Below, piece after piece: positions 11,584 to 23,490 of a stretch of 64,000 nucleotides of DNA; position 1 is the first letter of the stretch, and every line of letters starts with the position of its first letter. The DNA is taken from the NCBI GenBank assembly GCA_965655895.1, contig CBFHID010000002.1:6339-70338 (forward strand). The letters are read 5' to 3'. Both the position numbers and the translations under genes were made by a program. The notes below the pieces were generated by a model, which saw nothing but the letters and a program-made list of their open reading frames with translations, had not been told where the DNA came from and did not search any database. The stretch comes from Candidatus Pelagibacteraceae bacterium (GTDB lineage Bacteria > Pseudomonadota > Alphaproteobacteria > Pelagibacterales > Pelagibacteraceae).

Positions 11584-12717
11584 CTAAGCTAATCTTTGAT
11601 CGTTTCTAACTACAACCTTGATTGCGTCTTCGATCCTTTCTTTGGTATACTTCAATCCAGTTTCCAAATCTTTCATTGGAAAAGTATGGGTATGAATCAA
11701 CTTTGCATCGAATCTTTTTTGAGCCATTAAAGCCATAGCTCTATGACATGCAGATTTACCTTCTCCGCGCGTTGCAAAAATATATGCGTTATTTCTAACT
11801 AAGTTTGCTATATCAACGGTTACTGGTTTTGATGGAAAAGCAGCTAAACCGATTTTACCACCTCTTCTAATCATTGAAGATGCGTCGTTAATTGCATTTT
11901 CTGCACCTGAGCATTCCAGGACATAATGTGCTCCAACTCCACCCGTTAACTCTTTTACTTTTTTTACTGCGTCTTCGTTTCTCACATTTATTACGTGAGA
12001 TGCACCGAGTTTTTTTCCTATTTCCAATCTATTATCTCTAGTACCTGTTAAAATAACTTCAGCACCAAGTGAACTAGCTACTCCAACTGCGCATAAACCG
12101 ATTGGTCCTGGTCCTGTAATAACTATAGTTTGACCGGCATATAAACCACCCATCACATCTAAAGTGTACATACTGGTACCTGCGGTTACACACAATGTTG
12201 CTTCTTCATCAGACATGTCATCAGGAACTTTAACTAATGTTTGAGTTCGATTTGTCATATACTCTGCAAAGGCACCGTCTGTCGTAAAACCATTAGCTTT
12301 ATGTCCTCTGTCAGTATAGCTATAATTTAAACAAGAAGTGTACCAACCTTTTCTACACATTTCACATCTACTACAACCTGCATGAATTTCTACACAAACT
12401 CTATCACCAGGTTTAAATTCGTGAACACCTTCTCCTAACTTCACCACTGTACCCATTGCTTCATGGCCAAAAGTAAAATCTTTATTAAAAGGTAACTCTC
12501 CATTTATCATTGCAGGTAAACCGTGAGACATAATTTCTAAATCAGTTGCACATATTGCTACTGCATCAATTTTTAAAAGAACCTCACCTTCTTTTGGTTC
12601 TGGTATAGGTTTTTTCTTTATTGAAATATTATTAGGATCATTCAGTACCCAAGCACCCATTTCCTTTGGTATTTCAAATTTTTGGTTGTGACCCATCATA
12701 CTCTCATCACGCGGCAT
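11584..12717 (-). CDS. Zn-dependent medium-chain alcohol/polyol dehydrogenase
   Basis: I moved the start to ATG 12717 (MPRDESMMGHN...) because AAGGAG lies 7 nt upstream. Motifs: AVAICATDLE, GHEAMGTV, the Cys cluster CSRCEMCRKG and the Rossmann block ITGPGPIGL. Confidence 0.85.
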   Translation of the reverse strand: MPRDESMMGHNQKFEIPKEMGAWVLNDPNNISIKKKPIPEPKEGEVLLKIDAVAICATDLEIMSHGLPAMINGELPFNKDFTFGHEAMGTVVKLGEGVHEFKPGDRVCVEIHAGCSRCEMCRKGWYTSCLNYSYTDRGHKANGFTTDGAFAEYMTNRTQTLVKVPDDMSDEEATLCVTAGTSMYTLDVMGGLYAGQTIVITGPGPIGLCAVGVASSLGAEVILTGTRDNRLEIGKKLGASHVINVRNEDAVKKVKELTGGVGAHYVLECSGAENAINDASSMIRRGGKIGLAAFPSKPVTVDIANLVRNNAYIFATRGEGKSACHRAMALMAQKRFDAKLIHTHTFPMKDLETGLKYTKERIEDAIKVVVRNDQRLA

Positions 12718-13501
12718 GTTTATCTCCTTTTTTTCTAGTTTTTTTAAAGTATTTTCCAATTTCAAGGGCAGAAAATTTCACAGAATTTTTAATTTTTTCT
12801 AAATATTTTTTATCAGTTATTATTTTAAATTTTGGAGACGAACAGCTAATAGAAGCAAAAGGTCTTTGCTCATCATCAAAAATAGGATAGCCAACACAAA
12901 AAACACCTGGCTGAAACTCTTCATCATCAGTAGCAAATCCATTTTTTTTAATTTTTTTTAATTCATTAGTCAAAAGATTAATATTCGTAATTGTATGATT
13001 GGTAAATTTCTCTAATTTTGCTTTTAAGATTTTTTTTTGACTTACTTCACTCATATAAGCTAACATCGCTTTACCTGATGCCGTTGCATGAAATGCATTA
13101 TCTTTGTTTAAGAAACCATGGTCAACTCTAACTGGATGGACAGACTCTAGCATACTTAAAGTTATTAGTTTTGTTCCTTCAAATGAAGCAAGGTGAACAG
13201 CTTCGCCAGTAGTATCATTAATTTTTTTAATAAAAGGTTCAGCAAAATTTATAAAAGAGTTTGCATTTAAATCTATAACTTCGCCAAACTTCTTTAATTT
13301 AGATCCAAGAAAATATTTTTTTGATTTTAAATCTTGATACAAATAACCTTGATCACATATAGTTGATAGCATGTGATGAGCAGCAGATTTTTTAAACCCT
13401 AAATGATCACATATTTCTTTTAGACTAATTCCTTTTCTAGAATCAGACTCCAAAAAATAATCCAAAGTATTTAAAGTTTTAGATATAGATTTAACCGACA
13501 T
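12707..13501 (-). CDS. IclR-family transcriptional regulator
   Basis: 264 aa. N-terminal winged HTH (LKEICDHLGFKKSAAHHMLSTI) plus an IclR-type effector domain. It is the first gene of the operon. Confidence 0.9.
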   Translation of the reverse strand: MSVKSISKTLNTLDYFLESDSRKGISLKEICDHLGFKKSAAHHMLSTICDQGYLYQDLKSKKYFLGSKLKKFGEVIDLNANSFINFAEPFIKKINDTTGEAVHLASFEGTKLITLSMLESVHPVRVDHGFLNKDNAFHATASGKAMLAYMSEVSQKKILKAKLEKFTNHTITNINLLTNELKKIKKNGFATDDEEFQPGVFCVGYPIFDDEQRPFASISCSSPKFKIITDKKYLEKIKNSVKFSALEIGKYFKKTRKKGDKHAA

Positions 13502-13634: not shown

Positions 13635-14468
13635 TTAAAAATTTAAAAATTCAATAAATGCGCGAATTGAAATAACTATTAAAAAAATACCAAATATCTT
13701 ACTTAATAAATCTTTATTAATAGAATGTACAAGTCTTGCCCCAATGGGTGCCATAGTCATAGTAACTGGCACAAAGACTAGAAAACCAGGAATGTTTACA
13801 TATCCAATAGATAATGGTGCGGAAAAATTTGAAAACATAAATCCGCTAAATGCCATTGATGATGCTCCAAAAATTGAAATAATAAAGCCAATTGCTGCAG
13901 ATGTACCAATTGCTTCTCTAATTGGGTATCCAAATAATCTCATGAAGGGGACCCCTAAAGACCCTCCCCCAATTCCAAGGGGTACGGACATAAAACCCAT
14001 AAACAAACCTGTTAAGCTTTTAATTAGAGGTCCAACATTTTTTGGTTTTTCTCCCATTTTTTCTCTAATGAAAATAAAGAATAGACCAACGCAGAATGAG
14101 AAAATTGAAAATATCAATAATAGTTGAATAGTTTTTAATTGGGTTGCCATAAAAGTTCCAATAAAAATTCCAATCACAACAGAAATACCAAAAGATTTAA
14201 TTAAATTAAAATTTACAGCTTTAAATTTATAATGGGTTTTAGCAGACATAATCGAAGTGGGTATTATAATTGCTAAAGATGTTCCTAAAGATAAATGCAT
14301 AATAATATTTGGGTCAAACTCTAAAATTGAAAAGGCATAATATAAAGCAGGCACCATTAAAATTCCTCCACCCACTCCTAAAAGTCCAGCAATAAAACCT
14401 GATGCCGTTGCTGCAATAGCTAAAACGATCATCAAGGTAGCTAACTGGTTAAAATCTAAACTTACCAA
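13635..14468 (-). CDS. TSUP/TauE-SafE family anion (sulfite/sulfonate-type) exporter
   Basis: 277 aa with about 8 TM helices. The two halves carry GGGILMVPAL and GIGGGSLGVPF motifs typical of DUF81/TauE. Confidence 0.8.
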   Translation of the reverse strand: MVSLDFNQLATLMIVLAIAATASGFIAGLLGVGGGILMVPALYYAFSILEFDPNIIMHLSLGTSLAIIIPTSIMSAKTHYKFKAVNFNLIKSFGISVVIGIFIGTFMATQLKTIQLLLIFSIFSFCVGLFFIFIREKMGEKPKNVGPLIKSLTGLFMGFMSVPLGIGGGSLGVPFMRLFGYPIREAIGTSAAIGFIISIFGASSMAFSGFMFSNFSAPLSIGYVNIPGFLVFVPVTMTMAPIGARLVHSINKDLLSKIFGIFLIVISIRAFIEFLNF

Positions 14469-14469
14469 T

Positions 14470-15462
14470 TTAGTTTACCATTTCAACTTTTTCATTATTT
14501 TGAATAACTTCGAGAATATGTTTAACTTTTTGAAAGTCAGAGTCTCTTGCCATCATATTATCAGATAAATATCTTTTCCATTTTCCAGCACCTCTTTGTC
14601 CATGATATAAACCAACCGTATGTCTCATTATTTGATTTACTCTAGTACCGTTTTCAACTTCTTTATGAACATATTCGACTAACTTTTCTACAATTTCTTC
14701 TCTTGATAAAATATTATGATTATTAAAAATTTCTTTTTCAATTTCTGCCAAGAAATAAGGTGACTGATAAATTGCCCTACCTATCATAACACCATCAACT
14801 TCGTTTAAATGAGATTTAATTTCTTCTACATTTATAATCGCTCCGTTAATTATGATTTCAATTTCTGGGTTTGATTTTTTTATATCATATACCATTTGAT
14901 AATTTAATTTTGGGATTTTTAAATTTTCTTTAGGAGTTAATCCTTTTAGAATAGCTTTTCTTGCATGAAGAATAATTGTTTTTACTCCTGTATTTTTAAT
15001 TTTCTCAATAAAAGAATTGAGGTAATCAAAATTTTCTACATCATCATACCCAATACGAGTCTTTGCGGTTACTGGAAGAGTAGTTGAATTAACCATGGCA
15101 TGCAAACAATCTGCAACTAAATCTGGCTCCTTAATTAAACATGCGCCAAATTTATTTTTTTGTACTTTTTTACTGGGGCACCCTAAATTTAAATTTACTT
15201 CGTCATAACCAAAATCTTCTACAATTTTACAACATTCAGCTAATTCTTTTGTATTAGAGCCGCCTAATTGCAATGAAACCGGTTTTTCAAATTCACTAAA
15301 CTCTAAAACTTTTTTACGATCACCGTTCATTATTGCCCCAGTTGCAATCATTTCTGAATATAAAAAAATATTTTTACTAATTAACCTTAAAAAATATCGA
15401 TCATGACGATCAGTGCAATCCATCATAGGAGCCATGGAAATGGTTCGATTTAGGTTAGACAT
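14470..15462 (-). CDS. dusA: tRNA-dihydrouridine synthase A
   Basis: 330 aa with the MAPMMDCTDRHDRYFLRLIS N-terminus and the NLNLGCPSKKVQ catalytic block. Confidence 0.9.
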   Translation of the reverse strand: MSNLNRTISMAPMMDCTDRHDRYFLRLISKNIFLYSEMIATGAIMNGDRKKVLEFSEFEKPVSLQLGGSNTKELAECCKIVEDFGYDEVNLNLGCPSKKVQKNKFGACLIKEPDLVADCLHAMVNSTTLPVTAKTRIGYDDVENFDYLNSFIEKIKNTGVKTIILHARKAILKGLTPKENLKIPKLNYQMVYDIKKSNPEIEIIINGAIINVEEIKSHLNEVDGVMIGRAIYQSPYFLAEIEKEIFNNHNILSREEIVEKLVEYVHKEVENGTRVNQIMRHTVGLYHGQRGAGKWKRYLSDNMMARDSDFQKVKHILEVIQNNEKVEMVN

Positions 15463-16750
15463 ATTTCTTTATTTTATCAGAATAGGAAATAATACCTTTA
15501 GTAAAAAAATCTTCATGAATTTTTTCTAATTTATCTAGTTGGTATCCGTAATTAATCATAATTCCAAAAGATTCCTTGTAACCATAATCTGTTATATTTC
15601 CATTAATCAATATATTATGAATACTAGCGCCATTTCCAAGGTGAAATCTCGATACTTGATTAAGTGGCTTGTTATTAATTTTTTCATTAATTAAATAATG
15701 AGCAACTAATTTCTTAATTGCTGTTTTTTCCTCTAATATCCTTGGATCGCCAATTTTTAAATCAACCGATCTCAAAAAATCTAATTTAGAAATATCATAA
15801 TTTTTTAGTATGTTTTGAACTTTCTCTTTTTCTAAAGATAAAAACCAATCCGCAAACCCTGGTAGTGGAGATAGTGTACCAAAATTTTTAATTTTAGGGT
15901 TTTCTTCTTGAATTTCAAAAACAACTCTTTTTATCAAAAAGTTTCCAAGCGTGACTCTCATTAAACCTTCTTGACAATTACTAATAGAATAAAAAGTTGC
16001 AGTATCATAATCAATTATATCTTCTGTTTTAGGTTTAATTATCTCTTGAATTGAATTTCCTATTCCTTTAGTAAAAGCTACTTCAACAAAAATTAAAGGT
16101 TCATCAACTAAGATAGGATGAAAATAAGCAAAAAATCTTCTATCTTCTTGTTGCAATCTTCTTTTAAGATCATTCATATCTTTAATTGCGTGTACTTTTT
16201 CATATTTAATTATTTTTTCTAAAATAGCAGCTTTAGAGTCCCAGGTAATCTTTTCCAATCTTAAAAACCCTGGATTAAACCATGACTTAAAAAGATGCCT
16301 TATATCCTCGTCTAAAGTTATTAAATCTGGATTCGTTGTAGTAAACTTCAATAAATCTTCTCTCATAGATACCAAAAATTGCGTTCCATTAGGAGCCATG
16401 TTTAGTCTTCTAATAAACTCTTGTCGATTACCTTCTATGACCTCACCTAATTCATTAAGACTTTTTTGATCCTTTTTTTTTAAATAATTTTCGATTCTTT
16501 CTTCAACTTTAATTGAACTGGGCGAGAATTTTTTATTAAGTTGTTTGAAAAAATCTAATTTTTTATTACTATCAAACGAATTGTAGATTTCAGTAATCTC
16601 CCTTGCAATCGCAATTCCAGATGCTGCTCCTTTGAAAGAAATTAAATCATAACAAAGTTCTATGATATCTTTTTTTTTATAAGAAAAATTTTTTTCTAAC
16701 AGCTCTCTTCCAGCGTCTGCTATATTTTCAATTATTTTTTTTAAAAACAT
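15455..16750 (-). CDS. Malonyl-CoA decarboxylase (MatA/MLYCD family)
   Basis: 431 aa. FYSISNCQEGLMRVTLGNFLIKRV and VSRFHLGNGASI match the malonyl-CoA decarboxylase catalytic domain as I recall it. It lies 4 nt downstream of dctM. Confidence 0.85.
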   Translation of the reverse strand: MFLKKIIENIADAGRELLEKNFSYKKKDIIELCYDLISFKGAASGIAIAREITEIYNSFDSNKKLDFFKQLNKKFSPSSIKVEERIENYLKKKDQKSLNELGEVIEGNRQEFIRRLNMAPNGTQFLVSMREDLLKFTTTNPDLITLDEDIRHLFKSWFNPGFLRLEKITWDSKAAILEKIIKYEKVHAIKDMNDLKRRLQQEDRRFFAYFHPILVDEPLIFVEVAFTKGIGNSIQEIIKPKTEDIIDYDTATFYSISNCQEGLMRVTLGNFLIKRVVFEIQEENPKIKNFGTLSPLPGFADWFLSLEKEKVQNILKNYDISKLDFLRSVDLKIGDPRILEEKTAIKKLVAHYLINEKINNKPLNQVSRFHLGNGASIHNILINGNITDYGYKESFGIMINYGYQLDKLEKIHEDFFTKGIISYSDKIKKYV

Positions 16751-16754
16751 TTAA

Positions 16755-18083
16755 TTAGCTTTTAAAAAGCTGCTGCGGCAACCAAGTAGCAATCTCAGGA
16801 AAAATACAAAGGATGATTATTCCAAGAACCATACATAACATAAAAGGAAATGACCCCTTTAAAATTTGAGGTAGTGATATATCTGGAGATATCCCTTTTA
16901 TTACATACAAGTTAAGTCCGACAGGAGGTGTTATTAGTCCAATTTCCATATTGATTGTTAATATTACTGCAAACCACACCGGGTCAAAACCAGCTTGTTC
17001 AATTACTGGAAGTAAAATTGGAGCTGTCATTACTATAATTGCAACAGGAGGTAAGAAGAAACCAGCAATTAATAAGAAAATATTAATCATAAATAGCAAT
17101 ACCCACTTATTAACCTCCACGGAGGTCATGAGTTCAGCAACACTTTGTGTGATATAAAGATTTGAAAGTGTAAAACTAAATAAATATGATGCTGCTATGA
17201 TCATTAAAATCATAACACTTTCTTTCATTGACTCTGTAAGAATTCCCCAAATTCTTTTAGGATTATAAATTTTATAAATAACGGCTACTAAAATTATACA
17301 AAAGAATGCTCCAACTCCAGATGCTTCAGAAGGTGTAGCAATTCCTCCATACAAAACATATAAAACTCCAACAACAACGAGAAGAAAAGGTAAAATTCTA
17401 GGCATGACTTCAAATCTCTCTTTCCAAGAGAAGCTTCTTCCAAAAATTGCCGATCCTTCAATATTTTTATCATCTTTTGTAGAAATCCAAGTTTTAAATA
17501 TTGCCCATACCATGAATAAACCTGTGAGCATCAGACCAGGAAATATACCGGCCATAAATAACTGACCAATCGATGTTTCTGTAGAAATACCATATACAAT
17601 CATTGTAATGCTTGGAGGAATCAAAATCCCAAGCGTTCCGCCAGCAGCTATTGTTCCAGCAGAAATTTCTTTTGGGTAACCTCTTTCTCTCATTTCAGGA
17701 ATTCCCATTTTTCCAATCGCAGCACATGTTGCTGGAGATGAACCGCTTAATGCCGCAAATAAAGCGCAAGCTCCAAGATTGGATACTACTAGCCCACCTG
17801 GAACTCTATTTAACCATCTATCTAAAGCTGAATATAAGTCCTTTCCTGCGGGCGATGAGGCAACAGCGATACCCATCACAATAAACATGGGTATTGAAAC
17901 AATTGCAAACTCTTCTAGTCCAGAAAAAAAAGTTTCTGCAACAACTCTGGCCATTCCAAAACCTTCAAAAGTAAATAAAAACATTAGAGCGACAAAGCCC
18001 AGACCAAAAGCAACAGGTATACCAGTTGAAAAAACTAATAAAGTAATAACAACAACTAGTAATCCAATTTCTAATGGTGTCAT
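16755..18083 (-). CDS. dctM: TRAP transporter large permease (DctM family)
   Basis: 442 aa polytopic membrane protein. It overlaps the small subunit gene by 4 nt. Confidence 0.9.
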   Translation of the reverse strand: MTPLEIGLLVVVITLLVFSTGIPVAFGLGFVALMFLFTFEGFGMARVVAETFFSGLEEFAIVSIPMFIVMGIAVASSPAGKDLYSALDRWLNRVPGGLVVSNLGACALFAALSGSSPATCAAIGKMGIPEMRERGYPKEISAGTIAAGGTLGILIPPSITMIVYGISTETSIGQLFMAGIFPGLMLTGLFMVWAIFKTWISTKDDKNIEGSAIFGRSFSWKERFEVMPRILPFLLVVVGVLYVLYGGIATPSEASGVGAFFCIILVAVIYKIYNPKRIWGILTESMKESVMILMIIAASYLFSFTLSNLYITQSVAELMTSVEVNKWVLLFMINIFLLIAGFFLPPVAIIVMTAPILLPVIEQAGFDPVWFAVILTINMEIGLITPPVGLNLYVIKGISPDISLPQILKGSFPFMLCMVLGIIILCIFPEIATWLPQQLFKS

Positions 18084-18607
18084 GAATTAACTTCTTCTGT
18101 AACTTCAAGTCCTGGAAACGGCATTTCTCTTTTAGTTATCAAAGATATAATATCTGTGATGTATTGAAGTATGGTGATGAACATTCCAATTGGAAAAGAT
18201 AAATATAATTTCCACATCTTTGCATTCCAAATCGTTCCTGTTGTCCAATTTTCTGTATAAGATTTCCACCACATTTCCGCACCAAGAACAAATAAAACAA
18301 TAAAAAATAATAATGACATAAAAGAAGCTAATAATGCTAAGAATAACTTTCCTTTATAATCAAAATAATGAGGTAAAAGCTCAACATTGACATGCCCCTT
18401 AACTAATAAGACATAGGGACATCCAATAAAAGTTGCTGCTGCGAGCGAGTATATTACAAATTCAGTTTGCCAAGATGTTGAAAGATTAAAGACATACCTT
18501 TCTACAACCATATCAATTATAACCAAGATAGCGCTAGCAATAAGCGTAGTGGCGATAACGCCACAAAATTTCGAAATAAATTTTACAAAATTTATATATT
18601 TATCCAT
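18080..18607 (-). CDS. dctQ: TRAP transporter small permease (DctQ family)
   Basis: 175 aa with 4 TM helices, located between dctP and dctM. Confidence 0.8.
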   Translation of the reverse strand: MDKYINFVKFISKFCGVIATTLIASAILVIIDMVVERYVFNLSTSWQTEFVIYSLAAATFIGCPYVLLVKGHVNVELLPHYFDYKGKLFLALLASFMSLLFFIVLFVLGAEMWWKSYTENWTTGTIWNAKMWKLYLSFPIGMFITILQYITDIISLITKREMPFPGLEVTEEVNS

Positions 18608-18615
18608 AAATAAAA

Positions 18616-18641
18616 AACCCTAGGCAATTAAGCCTAGGGTT
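18616..18641 (-). terminator. GC-rich intercistronic hairpin (AACCCTAGGC-N6-GCCTAGGGTT) followed by a T-run, between dctP and dctQ
   Basis: A perfect 10-bp stem. On the minus strand it is followed by TTTTTTATTT and then the dctQ ATG. It looks like a partial terminator or mRNA-stabilising element that would raise the ratio of binding protein to permease. Confidence 0.5.
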
Positions 18642-18655
18642 AATTTGTATTATTT

Positions 18656-19669
18656 TTATTTTACTGACAAAGCTTGGTCTAATAATTTTTGACCACCCGG
18701 AACCTTTGTTGCAAAATCTTTGAATGATGTTTTCTTAGCTATTTCTAACCAAGCTTTATAATCACTCTCATTCATATAAGCTAATTTAACACCAGCTTTT
18801 TTGAACGTGTTTTCCATTTTTGAGTCTAGTCCAGCAACTTGCTCTAACATCCAATCTTCAGCTTTTTTTCCTGCTGCTTTCAAAGCTGCTTTTTGTTTAT
18901 CACTTAGCTTGTTGTAAGATTTTTTGGACATTAGGATTGGCTCATACATAAACCATAAGCCATATTTTCCTGGAGGAGTTAAACACTTCACTTGTTCATA
19001 GATTTTGTAAGAAACAAAACTACCTGAACTAGTATTCGCACCAGTTAAAACACCTGTTTGAAGCGCAGAATATATTTCTGAACTTGGCATAGATGCAATA
19101 GACGACCCAGCTCCTTCTAACATTTTGTTAAACATCGGACCCGCAGCTCTCATTGCTTGGCCTTTTGCTGATGCAGGACTTGTAATACATTGAGTTTTTG
19201 AAGCAAAAGCTCCACCTAACCATGCGTCAGCCACAACCATAACACCTGCATCATCCATAATTTTTCTGATAGAGTCCATGAATGCAGATTTATTAATTCT
19301 TTTTGAATGATCATGGTTTTTAACGATTCCTGGCATCAAAGTAATGCTGAATTCTGGATGGAATTTATTTGCATAATCCAAAGGAAATGCAGTCATATCC
19401 AAATCACCAGTTGTTAAAGGCTGCCACTGCTCTTTTGGCTTATATAGAGACTTACCAGGATAGATTTGAATTTTAAAACCTACATTAGCTTTCTCTACTT
19501 CTCTTTTAATTATCTGAACCATTTCATCTCTAGGATCACCTTTTCCGCCCGGCCATTGATGAGATGCTTTCCACGTAACTTGTTTTTCAGGTTTATCACA
19601 TTGAGTAATAAACAAAAAAGAAGTCAGTAAAAAAACACCAGATAAAAAATAAGTTGAAATTTTTTTCAT
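18656..19669 (-). CDS. dctP: TRAP periplasmic substrate-binding protein (DctP family), lipoprotein-type signal
   Basis: 337 aa. Signal/lipobox LFITQC and a DctP-type carboxylate-binding Arg context (GQAMRAAG). A strong SD (GGGGG) precedes the ATG. Confidence 0.9.
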   Translation of the reverse strand: MKKISTYFLSGVFLLTSFLFITQCDKPEKQVTWKASHQWPGGKGDPRDEMVQIIKREVEKANVGFKIQIYPGKSLYKPKEQWQPLTTGDLDMTAFPLDYANKFHPEFSITLMPGIVKNHDHSKRINKSAFMDSIRKIMDDAGVMVVADAWLGGAFASKTQCITSPASAKGQAMRAAGPMFNKMLEGAGSSIASMPSSEIYSALQTGVLTGANTSSGSFVSYKIYEQVKCLTPPGKYGLWFMYEPILMSKKSYNKLSDKQKAALKAAGKKAEDWMLEQVAGLDSKMENTFKKAGVKLAYMNESDYKAWLEIAKKTSFKDFATKVPGGQKLLDQALSVK

Positions 19670-19732
19670 TAGTTTTCCCCCTGTTAGTTAAATTATTGGC
19701 TATTAGACTATATTTTGATATCAAGATCAACA

Positions 19733-20878
19733 ATGAATAAAGGGCCATTATCAGGATTATTAGTATTAGATCTTACTAGAGTTTTAGTGGGACCATACTG
19801 CACTATGATTTTATCAGATTTAGGTGCAAGAATTATTAAAGTGGAGGCTCCAGAAATAGGTGATGACTCGAGAGGATTTGGTCCATTTATTCAAGATCAA
19901 TCTGCGTACTTCATGTCTTTGAATAGAAATAAAGAAAGTATTGCGCTAAATCTAAAGATTGATGAAGATAAAAAAATTTTCGAAAAAATTTTAGCTAAGG
20001 CAGATATTTTGGTTGAAAACTTTAAACCTGGCACTCTAACCAAGTGGGGTTACGGATGGGATAATCTAAAAGATAAATATCCAAAATTAATTTATGCGTC
20101 TGCATCAGGATTTGGACAAACTGGTCCATTAAAAGAATTGCCAGCATATGATATGGTTGTTCAAGGTATGGGTGGTTTAATGAGTGTAACAGGTCAGCCT
20201 GATAGCGAACCAACAAGAGTTGGAACTTCAATTGGAGATATTACTGCAGGATTATTTACTGCGATTGGAATTAATGCTGCATTATATGATAGACAAAAAA
20301 CAGGTAAAGGCATGTACATTGATGTTGCTATGCTAGATTGTCAAATTGCAATTTTAGAAAATGCAATTGCAAGATATTTGTCTAAAGGCGAAATTCCAAA
20401 ACCAATGGGATCAAGGCATCCATCTATTTCACCATTCGAAGCTTTTAAAACGAAAGATAGTTACATAATAATCGCAGCCGGAAATGACAAATTATTTGAA
20501 GGAATGTGCGGAGTGTTTGATTTGGATTTATATAATGATGAGAAATTTAACACAAATGCTAGTAGAAATAAAAATATTGAAGAGTTGAAGAAAATTTTAG
20601 AGAACAAACTCAAAGATAAAACAACTGAGGAATGGTGTAGGGTTTTAGAAGAAAAAAGAATTCCTTGTGGTCCAATAAATAATATTAAAGAAGCAGTGGA
20701 AAGTCCTCAAACTAAAGCTCGCAATATGATTGTCAGTGCTATGCATAATAAAATTGGAGAATTTAAAATGGCAGGAAACCCTATAAAAATGTCTTCATAT
20801 GAAGATCGGATCACCCGAGGTGAAATACCCGACCTTGATCAACATAGAAATAAAATTTTAAAAGAATTTGATATTTAA
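19733..20878 (+). CDS. Family III (CaiB/BaiF/Frc-type) CoA-transferase
   Basis: The track ORF opens with TTG at 19715. The first ATG at 19733 gives the canonical N-terminus MNKGPLSGLLVLDLTRVLVGPYCT. The conserved block VGTSIGDITAG is present. Divergent from dctP. Confidence 0.9.
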   Translation: MNKGPLSGLLVLDLTRVLVGPYCTMILSDLGARIIKVEAPEIGDDSRGFGPFIQDQSAYFMSLNRNKESIALNLKIDEDKKIFEKILAKADILVENFKPGTLTKWGYGWDNLKDKYPKLIYASASGFGQTGPLKELPAYDMVVQGMGGLMSVTGQPDSEPTRVGTSIGDITAGLFTAIGINAALYDRQKTGKGMYIDVAMLDCQIAILENAIARYLSKGEIPKPMGSRHPSISPFEAFKTKDSYIIIAAGNDKLFEGMCGVFDLDLYNDEKFNTNASRNKNIEELKKILENKLKDKTTEEWCRVLEEKRIPCGPINNIKEAVESPQTKARNMIVSAMHNKIGEFKMAGNPIKMSSYEDRITRGEIPDLDQHRNKILKEFDI

Positions 20879-22614: not shown

Positions 22615-23490
22615 ATGTCTCATAAAGTTGCTTTTATAGGTTTAGGTGTCATGGGATTTCCAATGGCAGGTTATATATCAAAAGCTGGTCATGATGTAAC
22701 AGTTTATAATCGTACATCTGCCAAAGCAAATAAATGGGTAGAGACCTATAAGGGTAAGGTCGCAAGTACACCGGCAGAAGCAGCAAAAGATGCTGACTTT
22801 ATTTTTACTTGTGTAGGAAATGATAATGACCTTAGAGAAGTAACTACTGGACAAAATGGTGCCTTTCAAAGTGTAAGAAAAGGTTCAGTATTTATTGACA
22901 ACACAACTGCCTCAGCAAAAGTTGCTCGAGAATTGTTTAATATTGCAACTGAAAAAGGTTTTGGTTTTCTTGATGCTCCAGTTTCAGGTGGTCAAGCTGG
23001 TGCAGAAAATGGTGCATTAACAGTTATGGTTGGTGGTGAACAAAGCGACTATGATAAGGCAGAAAATATAATCGACTGTTATAGTAAAAAAATTAAATTA
23101 TTAGGAAAATCAGGTAGTGGACAACTAGCAAAAATGGTTAATCAAATTTGCATAGCAGGTTTAGTGCAAGGGTTATCTGAAGGTTTAAGATTTGGACAGA
23201 ATGCAGGTCTAAATGTAGAAGACGTTGTCGAAGTTATCTCTAAAGGAGCCGCCCAATCGTGGCAAATGGAAAATAGATTTAAAACTATGCTAGATGACAA
23301 ATTTGATTATGGATTTGCAGTAGATTGGATGAGAAAAGATCTTGGTATTGCAATGGAAGAGGCAAAAATTAATGGTTCAAAACTGCCTATAACAGAGATC
23401 ATAGATGGTTATTATTCAAATGTTCAAAAAAATGGTGGAAATAGATTTGATACTTCTAGTTTAATAACCTTGTTACCTAAAAAAAATTAA
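22615..23490 (+). CDS. NAD(P)-dependent 3-hydroxyisobutyrate dehydrogenase family oxidoreductase (MmsB/GarR-like)
   Basis: 291 aa with the N-terminal Rossmann block VAFIGLGVMGFPMAG and a 6PGDH-like C-terminal domain. SD AAGGAG. Confidence 0.85.
   Translation: MSHKVAFIGLGVMGFPMAGYISKAGHDVTVYNRTSAKANKWVETYKGKVASTPAEAAKDADFIFTCVGNDNDLREVTTGQNGAFQSVRKGSVFIDNTTASAKVARELFNIATEKGFGFLDAPVSGGQAGAENGALTVMVGGEQSDYDKAENIIDCYSKKIKLLGKSGSGQLAKMVNQICIAGLVQGLSEGLRFGQNAGLNVEDVVEVISKGAAQSWQMENRFKTMLDDKFDYGFAVDWMRKDLGIAMEEAKINGSKLPITEIIDGYYSNVQKNGGNRFDTSSLITLLPKKN

What the first reader, a model, noticed from the sequence alone, without database searches (positions are those of the whole stretch)
15455..20878. 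TRAP transporter + malonyl-CoA decarboxylase with a divergent family III CoA-transferase in place of a malonyl-CoA synthetase: possible ATP-independent malonate cycle
Seen in sequence: dctP, dctQ, dctM and the malonyl-CoA decarboxylase gene are co-oriented with 4-nt spacings or overlaps. A CaiB/Frc-type CoA-transferase is transcribed divergently, 63 nt from the dctP start. No AMP-forming acyl-CoA ligase is present in the neighbourhood.

Established knowledge: rhizobial malonate utilisation uses matA (decarboxylase) and matB (malonyl-CoA synthetase) with either MatC or, in Sinorhizobium meliloti, a TRAP system (matPQM).

Inference: here activation may proceed by CoA transfer (acetyl-CoA or succinyl-CoA + malonate -> malonyl-CoA). 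Decarboxylation would then regenerate acetyl-CoA. Net malonate -> acetate + CO2 would cost no ATP, which would be an economical design for an oligotroph. The TRAP ligand could equally be another short dicarboxylate or 3-oxo acid.
Basis: partly seen in the sequence, partly recalled or inferred. Interest (0 to 1): 0.6.

Follow-up and report, generated by a model that had tools for sequence, protein, structure and literature searches.

The report
Malonate operon with CoA-transferase replacing MatB
A SAR11 ocean bacterium carries the known malonate importer and malonyl-CoA decarboxylase, but the usual ATP-using activating enzyme (MatB) is missing from the genome and a CoA-transferase sits in its place; this probably marks an undescribed way of activating malonate, shared with many other Alphaproteobacteria, though no enzyme assay supports it yet.

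Summary
dctP, dctQ, dctM and a malonyl-CoA decarboxylase (MCD) gene run together on the minus strand. A family III CoA-transferase (CoAT, true start 19733) diverges 63 nt from dctP.

- **No matB.** The 99.99%-complete genome has four AMP-forming ligases and none is MatB.
- **The transporter is MatPQM-type.** The binding protein is 60% identical to that of the Sinorhizobium meliloti matPQMAB operon. Its best solved relative (4MCO) holds malonate.
- **CoAT sits in MatB's slot.** In four high-GC proteobacterial loci with 61-67% identical binding proteins, a bona fide MatB occupies the same divergent position.
- **CoAT is linked to MCD elsewhere.** They are directly adjacent in six non-SAR11 genomes. 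Among 131 MCD-bearing Alphaproteobacteria, CoAT homologues occur in 53 of 72 without MatB and 6 of 59 with it.

Three caveats apply. Tight spacing is normal in this genome. Some SAR11 keep CoAT without MCD or without the transporter. With acetyl-CoA as donor, the acetate must be re-activated, so assimilation saves no ATP.

First readers of this scan flagged the same module in four other genomes; none was followed up. I read it as a new variant of the mat system, supported by comparative evidence only.

The parts
15455..16750 (-). Malonyl-CoA decarboxylase (MatA-type MCD), 431 aa
   Evidence: Pfam MCD_N 1.4e-26 and MCD 3e-88. Solved bacterial MCDs 4ksf 4e-93 and 4ksa 1.5e-91. 42% identical to the MCD of the S. 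meliloti pSymA matPQMAB locus.
16755..18083 (-). TRAP large permease DctM (MatM-like), 442 aa
   Evidence: PF06808 3e-98; TIGR00786 373 bits, above the cut-off of 268. 61% identical to the S. meliloti counterpart and 64-72% to those in MatB-linked loci.
18080..18607 (-). TRAP small permease DctQ (MatQ-like), 175 aa
   Evidence: PF04290 1.7e-22. 4-nt overlap with dctM.
18616..18641 (-). Terminator-like hairpin (10-bp stem, then a T-run) between dctP and dctQ; likely partial termination that yields excess binding-protein mRNA
   Evidence: The function is inferred.
18656..19669 (-). TRAP solute-binding protein, MatP-like (probable malonate binder), 337 aa with an N-terminal signal helix
   Evidence: PF03480. 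Best solved relative is 4MCO/4MEV, Rfer_1840: E 1.3e-59, Z 38 over 307 residues. 4MCO has malonate in its binding site (PMC4086125). 60% identical to the binding protein of S. meliloti matPQMAB. 61-67% identical to binding proteins encoded next to MatB and/or MCD.
19670..19732 (.). 63-nt divergent control region shared by dctP and the CoA-transferase; contains the perfect palindrome TTGATATCAA at 19715-19724
   Evidence: Read directly. Nearly invariant among five related genomes whose flanking proteins are only 67-93% identical. Its function as an operator is inferred. The consensus scan found no sigma-70-like promoter in the spacer.
19733..20878 (+). Family III (CaiB/Frc) CoA-transferase, YfdE-like, 381 aa; proposed malonate-activating enzyme
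   Evidence: PF02515 3.6e-125. Best NCBIfam model is CoA:oxalate CoA-transferase, 418 bits, below its cut-off of 522. YfdE 4hl6 5e-113, about 53% identity; catalytic Asp kept; YfdE's GNRH loop reads GSRH here. Adjacent to MCD in six non-SAR11 genomes. Distribution complementary to MatB.
13635..14468 (-). TauE/SafE-family anion exporter; possible accessory, membership uncertain
   Evidence: PF01925 9e-46. A TauE gene directly follows MCD in an unrelated high-GC matB/matPQM-matA locus, L273. It abuts MCD in SAR11 Ia-type loci. Separated from mcd here by dusA.

Best explanation
This is a mat-type malonate utilisation locus in which the ATP-dependent malonyl-CoA synthetase MatB has been replaced, in the same genomic slot, by a YfdE-like family III CoA-transferase.

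**Proposed steps**
1. The periplasmic MatP-like protein binds malonate and DctQM imports it (inferred from orthology).
2. The CoA-transferase moves CoA from acetyl-CoA, or possibly succinyl-CoA, onto malonate to give malonyl-CoA (inferred, not shown).
3. MCD decarboxylates malonyl-CoA to acetyl-CoA and CO2 (inferred from family membership).

With acetyl-CoA as donor, steps 2 and 3 form a self-priming cycle with net malonate -> acetate + CO2. This is the C3 counterpart of the formyl-CoA transferase / oxalyl-CoA decarboxylase cycle. It clears malonate, a succinate dehydrogenase inhibitor, without ATP. Assimilating the acetate still needs the genome's AMP-forming Acs.

The two divergent units share a conserved 63-nt control region. 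The same enzyme pairing appears to serve many MCD-bearing Alphaproteobacteria that lack MatB.
For: **Gene identities.**

**The transporter is a malonate system.**
- The binding protein is 60% identical, DctM 61% and MCD 42%, to the S. meliloti pSymA DctPQM-MCD-MatB locus. MatPQM of that organism is an experimentally used malonate importer with MatP as the binder (review PMC12799670).
- The best solved relative, 4MCO, holds malonate.
- In a sample of 401 Alphaproteobacteria, about 10 of 23 non-SAR11 homologues at 48% identity or more lie within about 5 kb of MatB and/or MCD.

**matB is not found in the genome.** All four AMP-binding genes were scanned. They are Acs, a PrpE-like ligase, acetoacetyl-CoA synthetase and a FadD-like ligase that scores 166 bits against the MatB model's cut-off of 558. 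Two complete same-genus genomes also gave no MatB hit. The genome has no family I CoA-transferase, no Ach1-type transferase and no MdcA; its only CoA-transferases are two family III paralogues.

**Positional replacement.** Loci L270, L271, L273 and L274 (60-66% GC, binding protein 61-67% identical) have MatB (782-828 bits) divergent from dctPQM. L273 and L274 continue with MCD, which is the window's architecture with MatB where CoAT sits.

**Independent CoAT-MCD linkage.**
- They are directly adjacent in six genomes of two other alphaproteobacterial families. Three of these six are among the four best-scoring non-SAR11 homologues.
- MCD presence falls with decreasing similarity to the window's CoAT: 21/27, 18/27, 13/27 and 4/27 by quartile.

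**Complementary distribution with MatB.**
- MCD+MatB-: 53 of 72 genomes have CoAT, spread over 31 families.
- MCD+MatB+: 6 of 59 genomes have CoAT.
- Seven families contain both kinds of genome.

**Oxalate is unlikely.** The genome has no oxalyl-CoA decarboxylase (best hit 217 bits against a cut-off of 739). YfdE's GNxH specificity loop (PMC3720670) reads G[S/A/G]RH in this group.

**Co-occurrence within SAR11.** MCD and CoAT occur in the same three genera of the window's family and were not found in the 16 genomes searched from the other family in its order (f2).
Against: - No enzyme of this group has been assayed with malonate. YfdE itself was never tested with it.
- Of 80 SAR11 loci carrying this CoAT, about 28 with a full flank have the transporter but no MCD nearby. 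Four single-cell genomes had no MCD anywhere, though they are incomplete. Two loci (L142, L144) keep CoAT with neither transporter nor MCD.
- 46 of 230 genomes lacking both MCD and MatB carry a homologue, placed among housekeeping genes. The enzyme therefore has, or also has, another role.
- Two genomes (G166, G319) have both DctPQM-MatB and CoAT-MCD.
- In a FastTree, the SAR11 CoATs branch with other small AT-rich genomes rather than inside the MCD-rich crown. This could be a compositional artefact.
- Synteny inside SAR11 extends to rpoZ and dusA, so it is uninformative.
- The genome counts are not phylogenetically independent.
- The MatB scan scored only the top three candidates per genome.
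Confidence: 0.55

Rival explanations
1. The CoA-transferase is merely a conserved neighbour with an unrelated role, for example a general dicarboxylate or short-acid CoA-transferase. Imported malonate would instead be activated by a promiscuous AMP-forming ligase (Acs, the PrpE-like enzyme, acetoacetyl-CoA synthetase or the unassigned FadD-like ligase) or by the paralogous family III transferase on contig C10.
For: - CoAT persists in SAR11 loci that lack MCD or the transporter.
- It occurs in 46 of 230 genomes without MCD or MatB, among housekeeping genes.
- SAR11 synteny is conserved across unrelated genes, and tight packing is normal in this genome.
- A 562-aa ligase has no confident family assignment.
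- A paralogue with 41% identity exists.
Against: - CoAT sits exactly where MatB sits in four unrelated loci.
- CoAT and MCD are adjacent in six genomes outside SAR11.
- CoAT presence is strongly complementary to MatB among MCD-bearing genomes.
- MCD presence tracks similarity to this CoAT.
- TRAP plus MatB without MCD is also common: 40 genomes have MatB but no MCD. Loss of MCD therefore does not argue against a malonate-activating role.
Confidence: 0.25
2. The module handles a different short dicarboxylate or analogue, such as methylmalonate, oxalate or sulfoacetate. The transporter, transferase and decarboxylase would all act on that compound rather than on malonate.
For: - The closest characterised transferase uses oxalate.
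- Malonate in 4MCO could be a crystallisation additive (one search does not say otherwise).
- A TauE/SafE-type exporter lies two genes away.
- In one family the CoAT-MCD pair is preceded by an enoyl-CoA hydratase, which hints at a different pathway there.
Against: - 60% identity to the binding protein of the characterised S. meliloti malonate system, and 61-67% to proteins encoded beside true MatB enzymes.
- The genome has no oxalyl-CoA decarboxylase.
- The oxalate-type GNxH loop is altered.
- MCD matches both Pfam MCD domains over their full length and aligns with solved bacterial MCDs.
Confidence: 0.1
3. MCD and the CoA-transferase serve only to clear endogenously formed malonate or malonyl-CoA (metabolite repair, as ACSF3 plus MLYCD do in mitochondria). 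The adjacent transporter would be functionally independent.
For: - CoAT-MCD pairs outside SAR11 have no transporter beside them.
- In one genome CoAT follows sdhCDA, and malonate is the classical inhibitor of succinate dehydrogenase (established knowledge).
Against: - The transporter is a MatPQM orthologue that is found beside MatA and MatB in many lineages.
- In this window it is transcribed in one run with mcd.
Confidence: 0.07

Closest known systems
matPQMAB of Sinorhizobium meliloti (TRAP importer MatPQM, decarboxylase MatA, synthetase MatB); matABC of Rhizobium leguminosarum
   Same: The order dctP-dctQ-dctM-mcd is the same. Identities to the pSymA locus are binding protein 60%, DctM 61%, MCD 42%. 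The presumed substrate and end product (acetyl-CoA) are the same.
   Different: No MatB was found anywhere in the genome, and no GntR-type MatR is adjacent. A family III CoA-transferase is divergent from dctP, in the slot that MatB fills in L270, L271, L273 and L274.
YfdE / UctC, acetyl-CoA:oxalate CoA-transferase (family III; PDB 4HL6)
   Same: About 53% identity over the full length. Same fold family, and the catalytic Asp and loop His are conserved. Acetyl-CoA as donor would fit the proposed cycle.
   Different: It scores below the NCBIfam cut-off, 418 against 522. The GNxH loop proposed to set specificity reads GSRH. There are no oxc or frc partners in the genome. E. coli YfdE falls in a separate GNRH clade drawn from genomes that mostly lack MCD.
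Formyl-CoA transferase (Frc) plus oxalyl-CoA decarboxylase (Oxc) cycle of Oxalobacter formigenes and E. coli
   Same: Same logic. A family III CoA-transferase loads a dicarboxylate, and decarboxylation of the product regenerates the CoA donor for the next round. The resemblance is one of mechanism; it rests on established knowledge and PMC3720670.
   Different: The substrate is C3 rather than C2. The decarboxylase is a GNAT-fold MCD, not a thiamine enzyme. Import is by a TRAP system, not an oxalate/formate antiporter.
Malonate decarboxylase Mdc/Mad (MdcA acetyl-S-ACP:malonate ACP-transferase); orphan activity EC 2.8.3.3, malonate CoA-transferase
   Same: ATP-independent activation of malonate by thioester exchange with the acetyl thioester produced by decarboxylation.
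   Different: Mdc works on a dedicated acyl carrier protein within a multi-subunit complex, and no MdcA is found here. Here the carrier would be free CoA and the two enzymes are separate. One review notes that EC 2.8.3.3 has no KEGG orthology number (PMC8307300).
ACSF3 plus MLYCD (mitochondrial malonate clearance)
   Same: Activation followed by MCD-type decarboxylation to remove an inhibitor of succinate dehydrogenase. MCD is homologous (4f0x 6e-47).
   Different: The activating enzyme there is an ATP-dependent ligase, and no importer is involved.

Membership tests
mat-type malonate utilisation locus (matPQMAB / matABC) | MatP-like TRAP binding protein with DctQ and DctM | tested here: met
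   60% (P) and 61% (M) identity to the S. meliloti pSymA locus. Pfam and NCBIfam hits. 4MCO relative with malonate bound.
mat-type malonate utilisation locus (matPQMAB / matABC) | MatA: MCD-family malonyl-CoA decarboxylase in the same transcription unit | tested here: met
   PF17408 plus PF05292, 4 nt downstream of dctM. 4ksf 4e-93.
mat-type malonate utilisation locus (matPQMAB / matABC) | MatB: AMP-forming malonyl-CoA synthetase (NF005702, cut-off 558 bits) | tested here: not met
   Only four AMP-binding genes in a 99.99%-complete genome. The best MatB-model score among them is 166 bits. No hit at E<=1e-120 in G000, G002 or G010.
mat-type malonate utilisation locus (matPQMAB / matABC) | Adjacent GntR-type regulator (MatR) | tested here: not met
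   Neighbours are DusA, TauE, RpoZ and an MFS transporter. The nearest regulator (IclR, 12707-13501) heads a different operon. Breoghania locus L028 has the GntR gene.
Acetyl-CoA:oxalate CoA-transferase (YfdE/UctC, NF008511) | Score above the curated equivalog cut-off | tested here: not met
   418 bits against a cut-off of 522.
Acetyl-CoA:oxalate CoA-transferase (YfdE/UctC, NF008511) | Catalytic Asp (YfdE Asp173) | tested here: met
   The Asp in GTSIGDITAG aligns with that in YfdE's GTSLADLCGG. It is invariant in alignment A2.
Acetyl-CoA:oxalate CoA-transferase (YfdE/UctC, NF008511) | GNxH active-site loop (PMC3720670) | tested here: not met
   GSRH in the window and in all SAR11 copies examined. 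GARH, GSRH or GGRH in 97 of 118 aligned sequences. GNRH occurs in E. coli YfdE and a small clade.
Acetyl-CoA:oxalate CoA-transferase (YfdE/UctC, NF008511) | Partner oxalyl-CoA decarboxylase in the genome | tested here: not met
   Best TIGR03254 hit is 216.6 bits against a cut-off of 739.
Acetyl-CoA:oxalate CoA-transferase (YfdE/UctC, NF008511) | Activity with oxalate compared with malonate | not testable with these tools
   Needs an enzyme assay. Malonate was not among the substrates tested for YfdE or UctC.
Succinate-glutarate / succinate-hydroxymethylglutarate CoA-transferase (NF052585; SUGCT) | Score above the curated cut-off | tested here: not met
   346.7 bits against 750. SUGCT 9br6 scores 1e-93, weaker than YfdE.
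Malonate decarboxylase (Mdc/Mad) | MdcA alpha subunit (PF16957) | tested here: not met
   No match in the genome.
Malonyl-CoA decarboxylase family (PF05292/PF17408) | Both domains at full length | tested here: met
   MCD_N covers positions 1-85 of 85 and MCD 1-253 of 253.

The most novel reading that the evidence does not exclude
The G[S/A/G]RH-loop branch of YfdE-like family III CoA-transferases is the missing gene for the orphan activity malonate CoA-transferase (EC 2.8.3.3). Together with MCD it forms a free-CoA, self-priming malonate decarboxylation cycle. That cycle, rather than MatB, would be the malonate route in about 40% of the sampled MCD-bearing Alphaproteobacteria (53 of 131; three-quarters of those without MatB) and in large SAR11 populations. 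In genomes without MCD it would feed imported malonate directly into fatty-acid synthesis as malonyl-CoA, bypassing acetyl-CoA carboxylase.
Probability: 0.4. Interest if true: 0.75.

Novelty: new variant of a known kind. Interest (0 to 1): 0.62.

Why it matters
- **Ocean carbon cycling.** Malonate is a small dicarboxylate produced by photo-oxidation of dissolved organic matter (my own knowledge, not checked here), and it inhibits succinate dehydrogenase. A dedicated high-affinity importer and breakdown route in SAR11 would add a substrate to the short list known for the ocean's most abundant heterotrophs. The library search for SAR11 with malonate returned no paper whose title or abstract addresses malonate use.
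- **Enzymology.** The finding gives a testable candidate gene for an activity that has had no standalone gene. It also suggests a specificity-loop signature, GNxH versus G[S/A/G]RH, that separates oxalate-type enzymes from the proposed malonate-type ones.
- **Biotechnology.** A 2026 review of routes to malonyl-CoA lists only ATP-consuming MatB-type synthetases for malonate assimilation and calls that route the most ATP-costly (PMC12799670). A CoA-transferase route would be cheaper.
- **Annotation.** Thousands of these genes are likely to be labelled as generic CaiB/BaiF or as oxalate CoA-transferase.

Tried and rejected
- **Primary paper for 4MCO.** I looked for Vetting et al. 2015 by DOI and by a remembered PMC id; it is not held. 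The ligand was confirmed instead from PMC4086125. The structure-search titles were cut off before the ligand name.
- **SAR11 binding-protein survey (PMC11485210).** It does not mention malonate, and its supplements are not held. Its two unexpressed proteins (SAR11_0266, SAR11_1290) are from strain HTCC1062. I could not relate them to this locus, and neither MCD nor this CoAT was found in the 16 genomes sampled from the other family in the window's order (f2).
- **The search for related loci with the CoAT alignment.** It returned only Pelagibacterales. That was useful for variation within SAR11 but gave no evidence from outside it.
- **Promoter scan.** It found no sigma-70-like site in the 63-nt spacer.
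- **Intergenic alignment with SAR11 Ia-type loci.** I entered the window in the wrong orientation, and the aligned Ia spacers showed no sign of the IIIa palindrome. The conserved palindrome is therefore claimed only for the window's close relatives.
- **First translation of fetched CoAT stretches.** Choosing the strand by stop-codon count picked wrong strands in high-GC genomes. I redid it by alignment score.
- **FastTree placement.** It did not put SAR11 CoATs inside the MCD-rich crown. I do not use the tree as support.
- **Contexts of CoAT in genomes without MCD.** They showed no recurrent partner.
- **Oxalate catabolism.** Considered and rejected, because the genome has no Oxc.
- **Mdc-type decarboxylase and family I transferases.** Considered and rejected.
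- **Literature.** Searches found no paper linking family III CoA-transferases to malonate. This covers the held library only.

Full report
**What is there**

The window comes from a 1.16-Mb, 99.99%-complete, roughly 30% GC Pelagibacterales (SAR11) genome. By the CoA-transferase gene, its nearest named relatives are Candidatus Pelagibacter sp. HIMB109 and HIMB1517.

On the minus strand lie four genes:
- dctP, 18656-19669
- dctQ, 18080-18607
- dctM, 16755-18083
- an MCD-family malonyl-CoA decarboxylase, 15455-16750

A family III CoA-transferase (CoAT) runs the other way. Its real start is the ATG at 19733, where all relatives begin. The dctP-dctQ spacer holds a 10-bp hairpin followed by a T-run.

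The reported tight spacings are real but carry no information here. mcd overlaps dusA by 8 nt, and dusA is 1 nt from tauE. About half of all same-strand gaps in the window are 10 nt or less.

**The transporter and decarboxylase are a mat-type malonate system**

- *Structure.* The binding protein's best solved relative, by a wide margin, is 4MCO/4MEV, which is Rfer_1840 of Rhodoferax ferrireducens (E 1.3e-59). An AlphaFold model (pLDDT 89.6) aligns to it with Z 38 over 307 residues. 4MCO has malonate in its binding site (PMC4086125).
- *S. meliloti.* A tblastn search of plasmids hit S. meliloti pSymA at 60% identity. That locus reads DctP-DctQ-DctM-MCD-MatB, with 61% identity for DctM and 42% for MCD. 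This is the matPQMAB arrangement, and its MatPQM is used as a malonate importer with MatP as the binding subunit (PMC12799670).
- *Other named lineages.* Breoghania sp. has GntR / DctPQM-MCD-MatB, with a binding protein 67% identical and MatB scoring 840 bits against a cut-off of 558.
- *Wider sample.* In an even sample of 401 alphaproteobacterial genomes, 23 non-SAR11 genomes have a homologue at 48% identity or more. About ten of these lie within about 5 kb of MatB and/or MCD.

**matB is not found in the genome**

The genome has only four AMP-binding genes:
- acetyl-CoA synthetase, 1074 bits
- a PrpE-like ligase
- acetoacetyl-CoA synthetase
- a 562-aa FadD-like ligase, which scores 166 bits on the MatB model against a cut-off of 558

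The genome also lacks family I CoA-transferases, Ach1-type transferases and MdcA. Its only CoA-transferases are the window's gene and a 41%-identical paralogue on contig C10.

**The CoA-transferase sits in MatB's slot**

Four unrelated loci from 60-66% GC bacteria encode binding proteins 61-67% identical to the window's. In each, a true MatB (782-828 bits) is divergent from dctPQM. Two of them (L273, L274) continue dctPQM-mcd. That is the window's architecture with MatB where the SAR11 genome has CoAT.

**CoAT is linked to MCD outside SAR11**

- *Adjacency.* In the class sample, CoAT homologues at 57-61% identity are directly adjacent to MCD in six genomes of two families. In f43 the order is enoyl-CoA hydratase-CoAT-MCD on one strand. 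In f128 the pair is divergent. Three of these six are among the four best-scoring non-SAR11 homologues.
- *Gradient.* Ranking the 108 non-SAR11 genomes that carry a homologue by similarity to the window's CoAT, MCD is present in 21/27, 18/27, 13/27 and 4/27 per quartile. The base rate is about one third.
- *Complementarity with MatB*:

| Genome class | Genomes | With CoAT homologue |
|---|---|---|
| MCD+ MatB- | 72 | 53 (31 families) |
| MCD+ MatB+ | 59 | 6 |
| MCD- MatB+ | 40 | 6 |
| MCD- MatB- | 230 | 46 |

Seven families contain both MatB-type and CoAT-type genomes, so the switch happened more than once. These genomes are related to one another, and the MatB scan scored only three candidates per genome. 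The counts are therefore suggestive rather than a formal test.

**What kind of CoA-transferase it is**

Its closest characterised relative is E. coli YfdE, an acetyl-CoA:oxalate CoA-transferase (5e-113, about 53% identity). It scores below NCBI's cut-off for that function, 418 against 522.

The catalytic Asp is conserved. The GNxH loop, which the YfdE paper proposes as the specificity determinant (PMC3720670), reads GSRH here. Across the alphaproteobacterial homologues it reads GARH, GSRH or GGRH. GNRH is confined to E. coli YfdE and a small clade from genomes that mostly lack MCD.

The genome has no oxalyl-CoA decarboxylase, so oxalate catabolism is not the role. Malonate was never tested on YfdE or UctC.

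**Mechanism proposed, and its energetics**

1. MatP-like binding and DctQM import of malonate.
2. CoA transfer to malonate.
3. Decarboxylation by MCD to acetyl-CoA.

Only the gene identities are shown. Every step is inferred.

With acetyl-CoA as donor, as in YfdE, the product of step 3 primes step 2. Net: malonate -> acetate + CO2. This is the C3 analogue of the Frc/Oxc oxalate cycle.

The cycle needs no ATP, but assimilating the acetate needs the AMP-forming Acs. The net cost per acetyl-CoA then equals the MatB route. A succinyl-CoA donor would cost one ATP equivalent instead of two. The clear benefit of the cycle is ATP-free removal of an inhibitor of succinate dehydrogenase.

**What weakens the reading**

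- Within SAR11 the whole region is syntenic, including rpoZ and dusA, so conservation says nothing about function.
- Among 80 SAR11 loci with this CoAT, 23 have MCD between dusA and dctM, 18 have it beyond tauE, and 39 have none in the flank, about 28 of those with a full flank.
- Four single-cell genomes had no MCD anywhere, though they are incomplete. One complete genome has it 13 kb away.
- Two loci keep CoAT with neither transporter nor MCD.
- The absence of MCD is less damaging than it looks. 'TRAP plus MatB without MCD' is also common elsewhere: L270, L271, and 40 genomes with MatB but no MCD. In such genomes malonyl-CoA presumably enters fatty-acid synthesis.
- CoAT homologues in genomes without MCD or MatB sit among housekeeping genes with no recurrent partner. 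The enzyme family may therefore be broader in function.

**Literature**

Within the held library I found no paper on malonate use by SAR11. I found none linking a family III CoA-transferase to malonate. One review notes that EC 2.8.3.3 has no KEGG orthology number (PMC8307300). A 2026 review of routes to malonyl-CoA mentions no CoA-transferase route.

First readers of this scan flagged the same module in four other genomes. None was followed up.

**Verdict**

This is a new variant of the mat system, with a non-orthologous activating enzyme sitting in MatB's position, backed by several independent comparative lines but by no biochemistry.

- Confidence that the locus imports and decarboxylates malonate: about 0.8.
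- Confidence that this CoA-transferase is the activating enzyme: about 0.55.

Noticed in passing
window 16755-19669 compared with L021-L027: Two very different TRAP alleles exist within one genus. The window's DctQ is only 37-40% identical (DctP 69%, DctM 64%) to that of same-genus genomes whose flanking CoAT, MCD and DusA are 81-93% identical. One relative, G009, shares the window's allele (DctM 92%, DctP 89%). The window's DctQ is closer to those of high-GC MatB-linked loci (43-51%). This suggests the transporter was replaced in place.
   Followed up: partly
L071-L150 (80 SAR11 loci): The position and presence of MCD vary within SAR11. It lies between dusA and dctM in 23 loci, beyond tauE in 18, and is absent from the flank in 39. 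In some loci (for example L122) a second TauE paralogue occupies its place.
   Followed up: partly
window 13635-14468; L273:11401-12189: A TauE/SafE-family exporter gene directly follows MCD in an unrelated 62% GC matB/matPQM-matA locus. It also abuts MCD in SAR11 Ia-type loci. An earlier scan note (e1-703562) also lists TauE inside a malonate cluster. TauE may be a recurrent accessory of malonate loci, with an unknown role, perhaps acetate or anion export.
   Followed up: partly
L142 and L144 (8001-10009); L276, L277; window 22615-23490: A HIBADH-like NAD-binding dehydrogenase (a homologue of the window ORF at 22615-23490) immediately follows CoAT in two SAR11 loci that lack the transporter and MCD. 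It also lies 2-3 kb from CoAT in two genomes of another small-genome family. This may be a second functional partner of the transferase.
   Followed up: no
L067:7141-10582; G000 contig C10 (L155:705-2679): In family f43 an enoyl-CoA hydratase (NF004635, 425 bits) precedes CoAT-MCD on the same strand. The window genome's paralogous family III transferase is likewise preceded by a crotonase-family gene.
   Followed up: no
L278:6153-10552: In one small alphaproteobacterial genome without MCD, the CoAT homologue follows sdhC/D-like genes, sdhA and a GNAT gene. This is a curious neighbourhood, given that malonate inhibits succinate dehydrogenase.
   Followed up: no
window 19715-19724: A perfect palindrome, TTGATATCAA, lies in the 63-nt dctP/CoAT spacer. 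The surrounding roughly 50 nt are almost invariant in five related genomes. No regulator gene is adjacent.
   Followed up: partly
G014:C20:17992-19275 (L016): The MCD match lies in a 790-aa open frame in one same-genus genome. This could be a fusion or a lost stop codon joining it to a neighbouring gene.
   Followed up: no
L118 (Candidatus Pelagibacter sp. Uisw_094): MCD, DusA, DctP and the MFS gene each match in two or more pieces in this 'complete' genome. This suggests frameshifts from sequencing errors or real decay of the locus.
   Followed up: no
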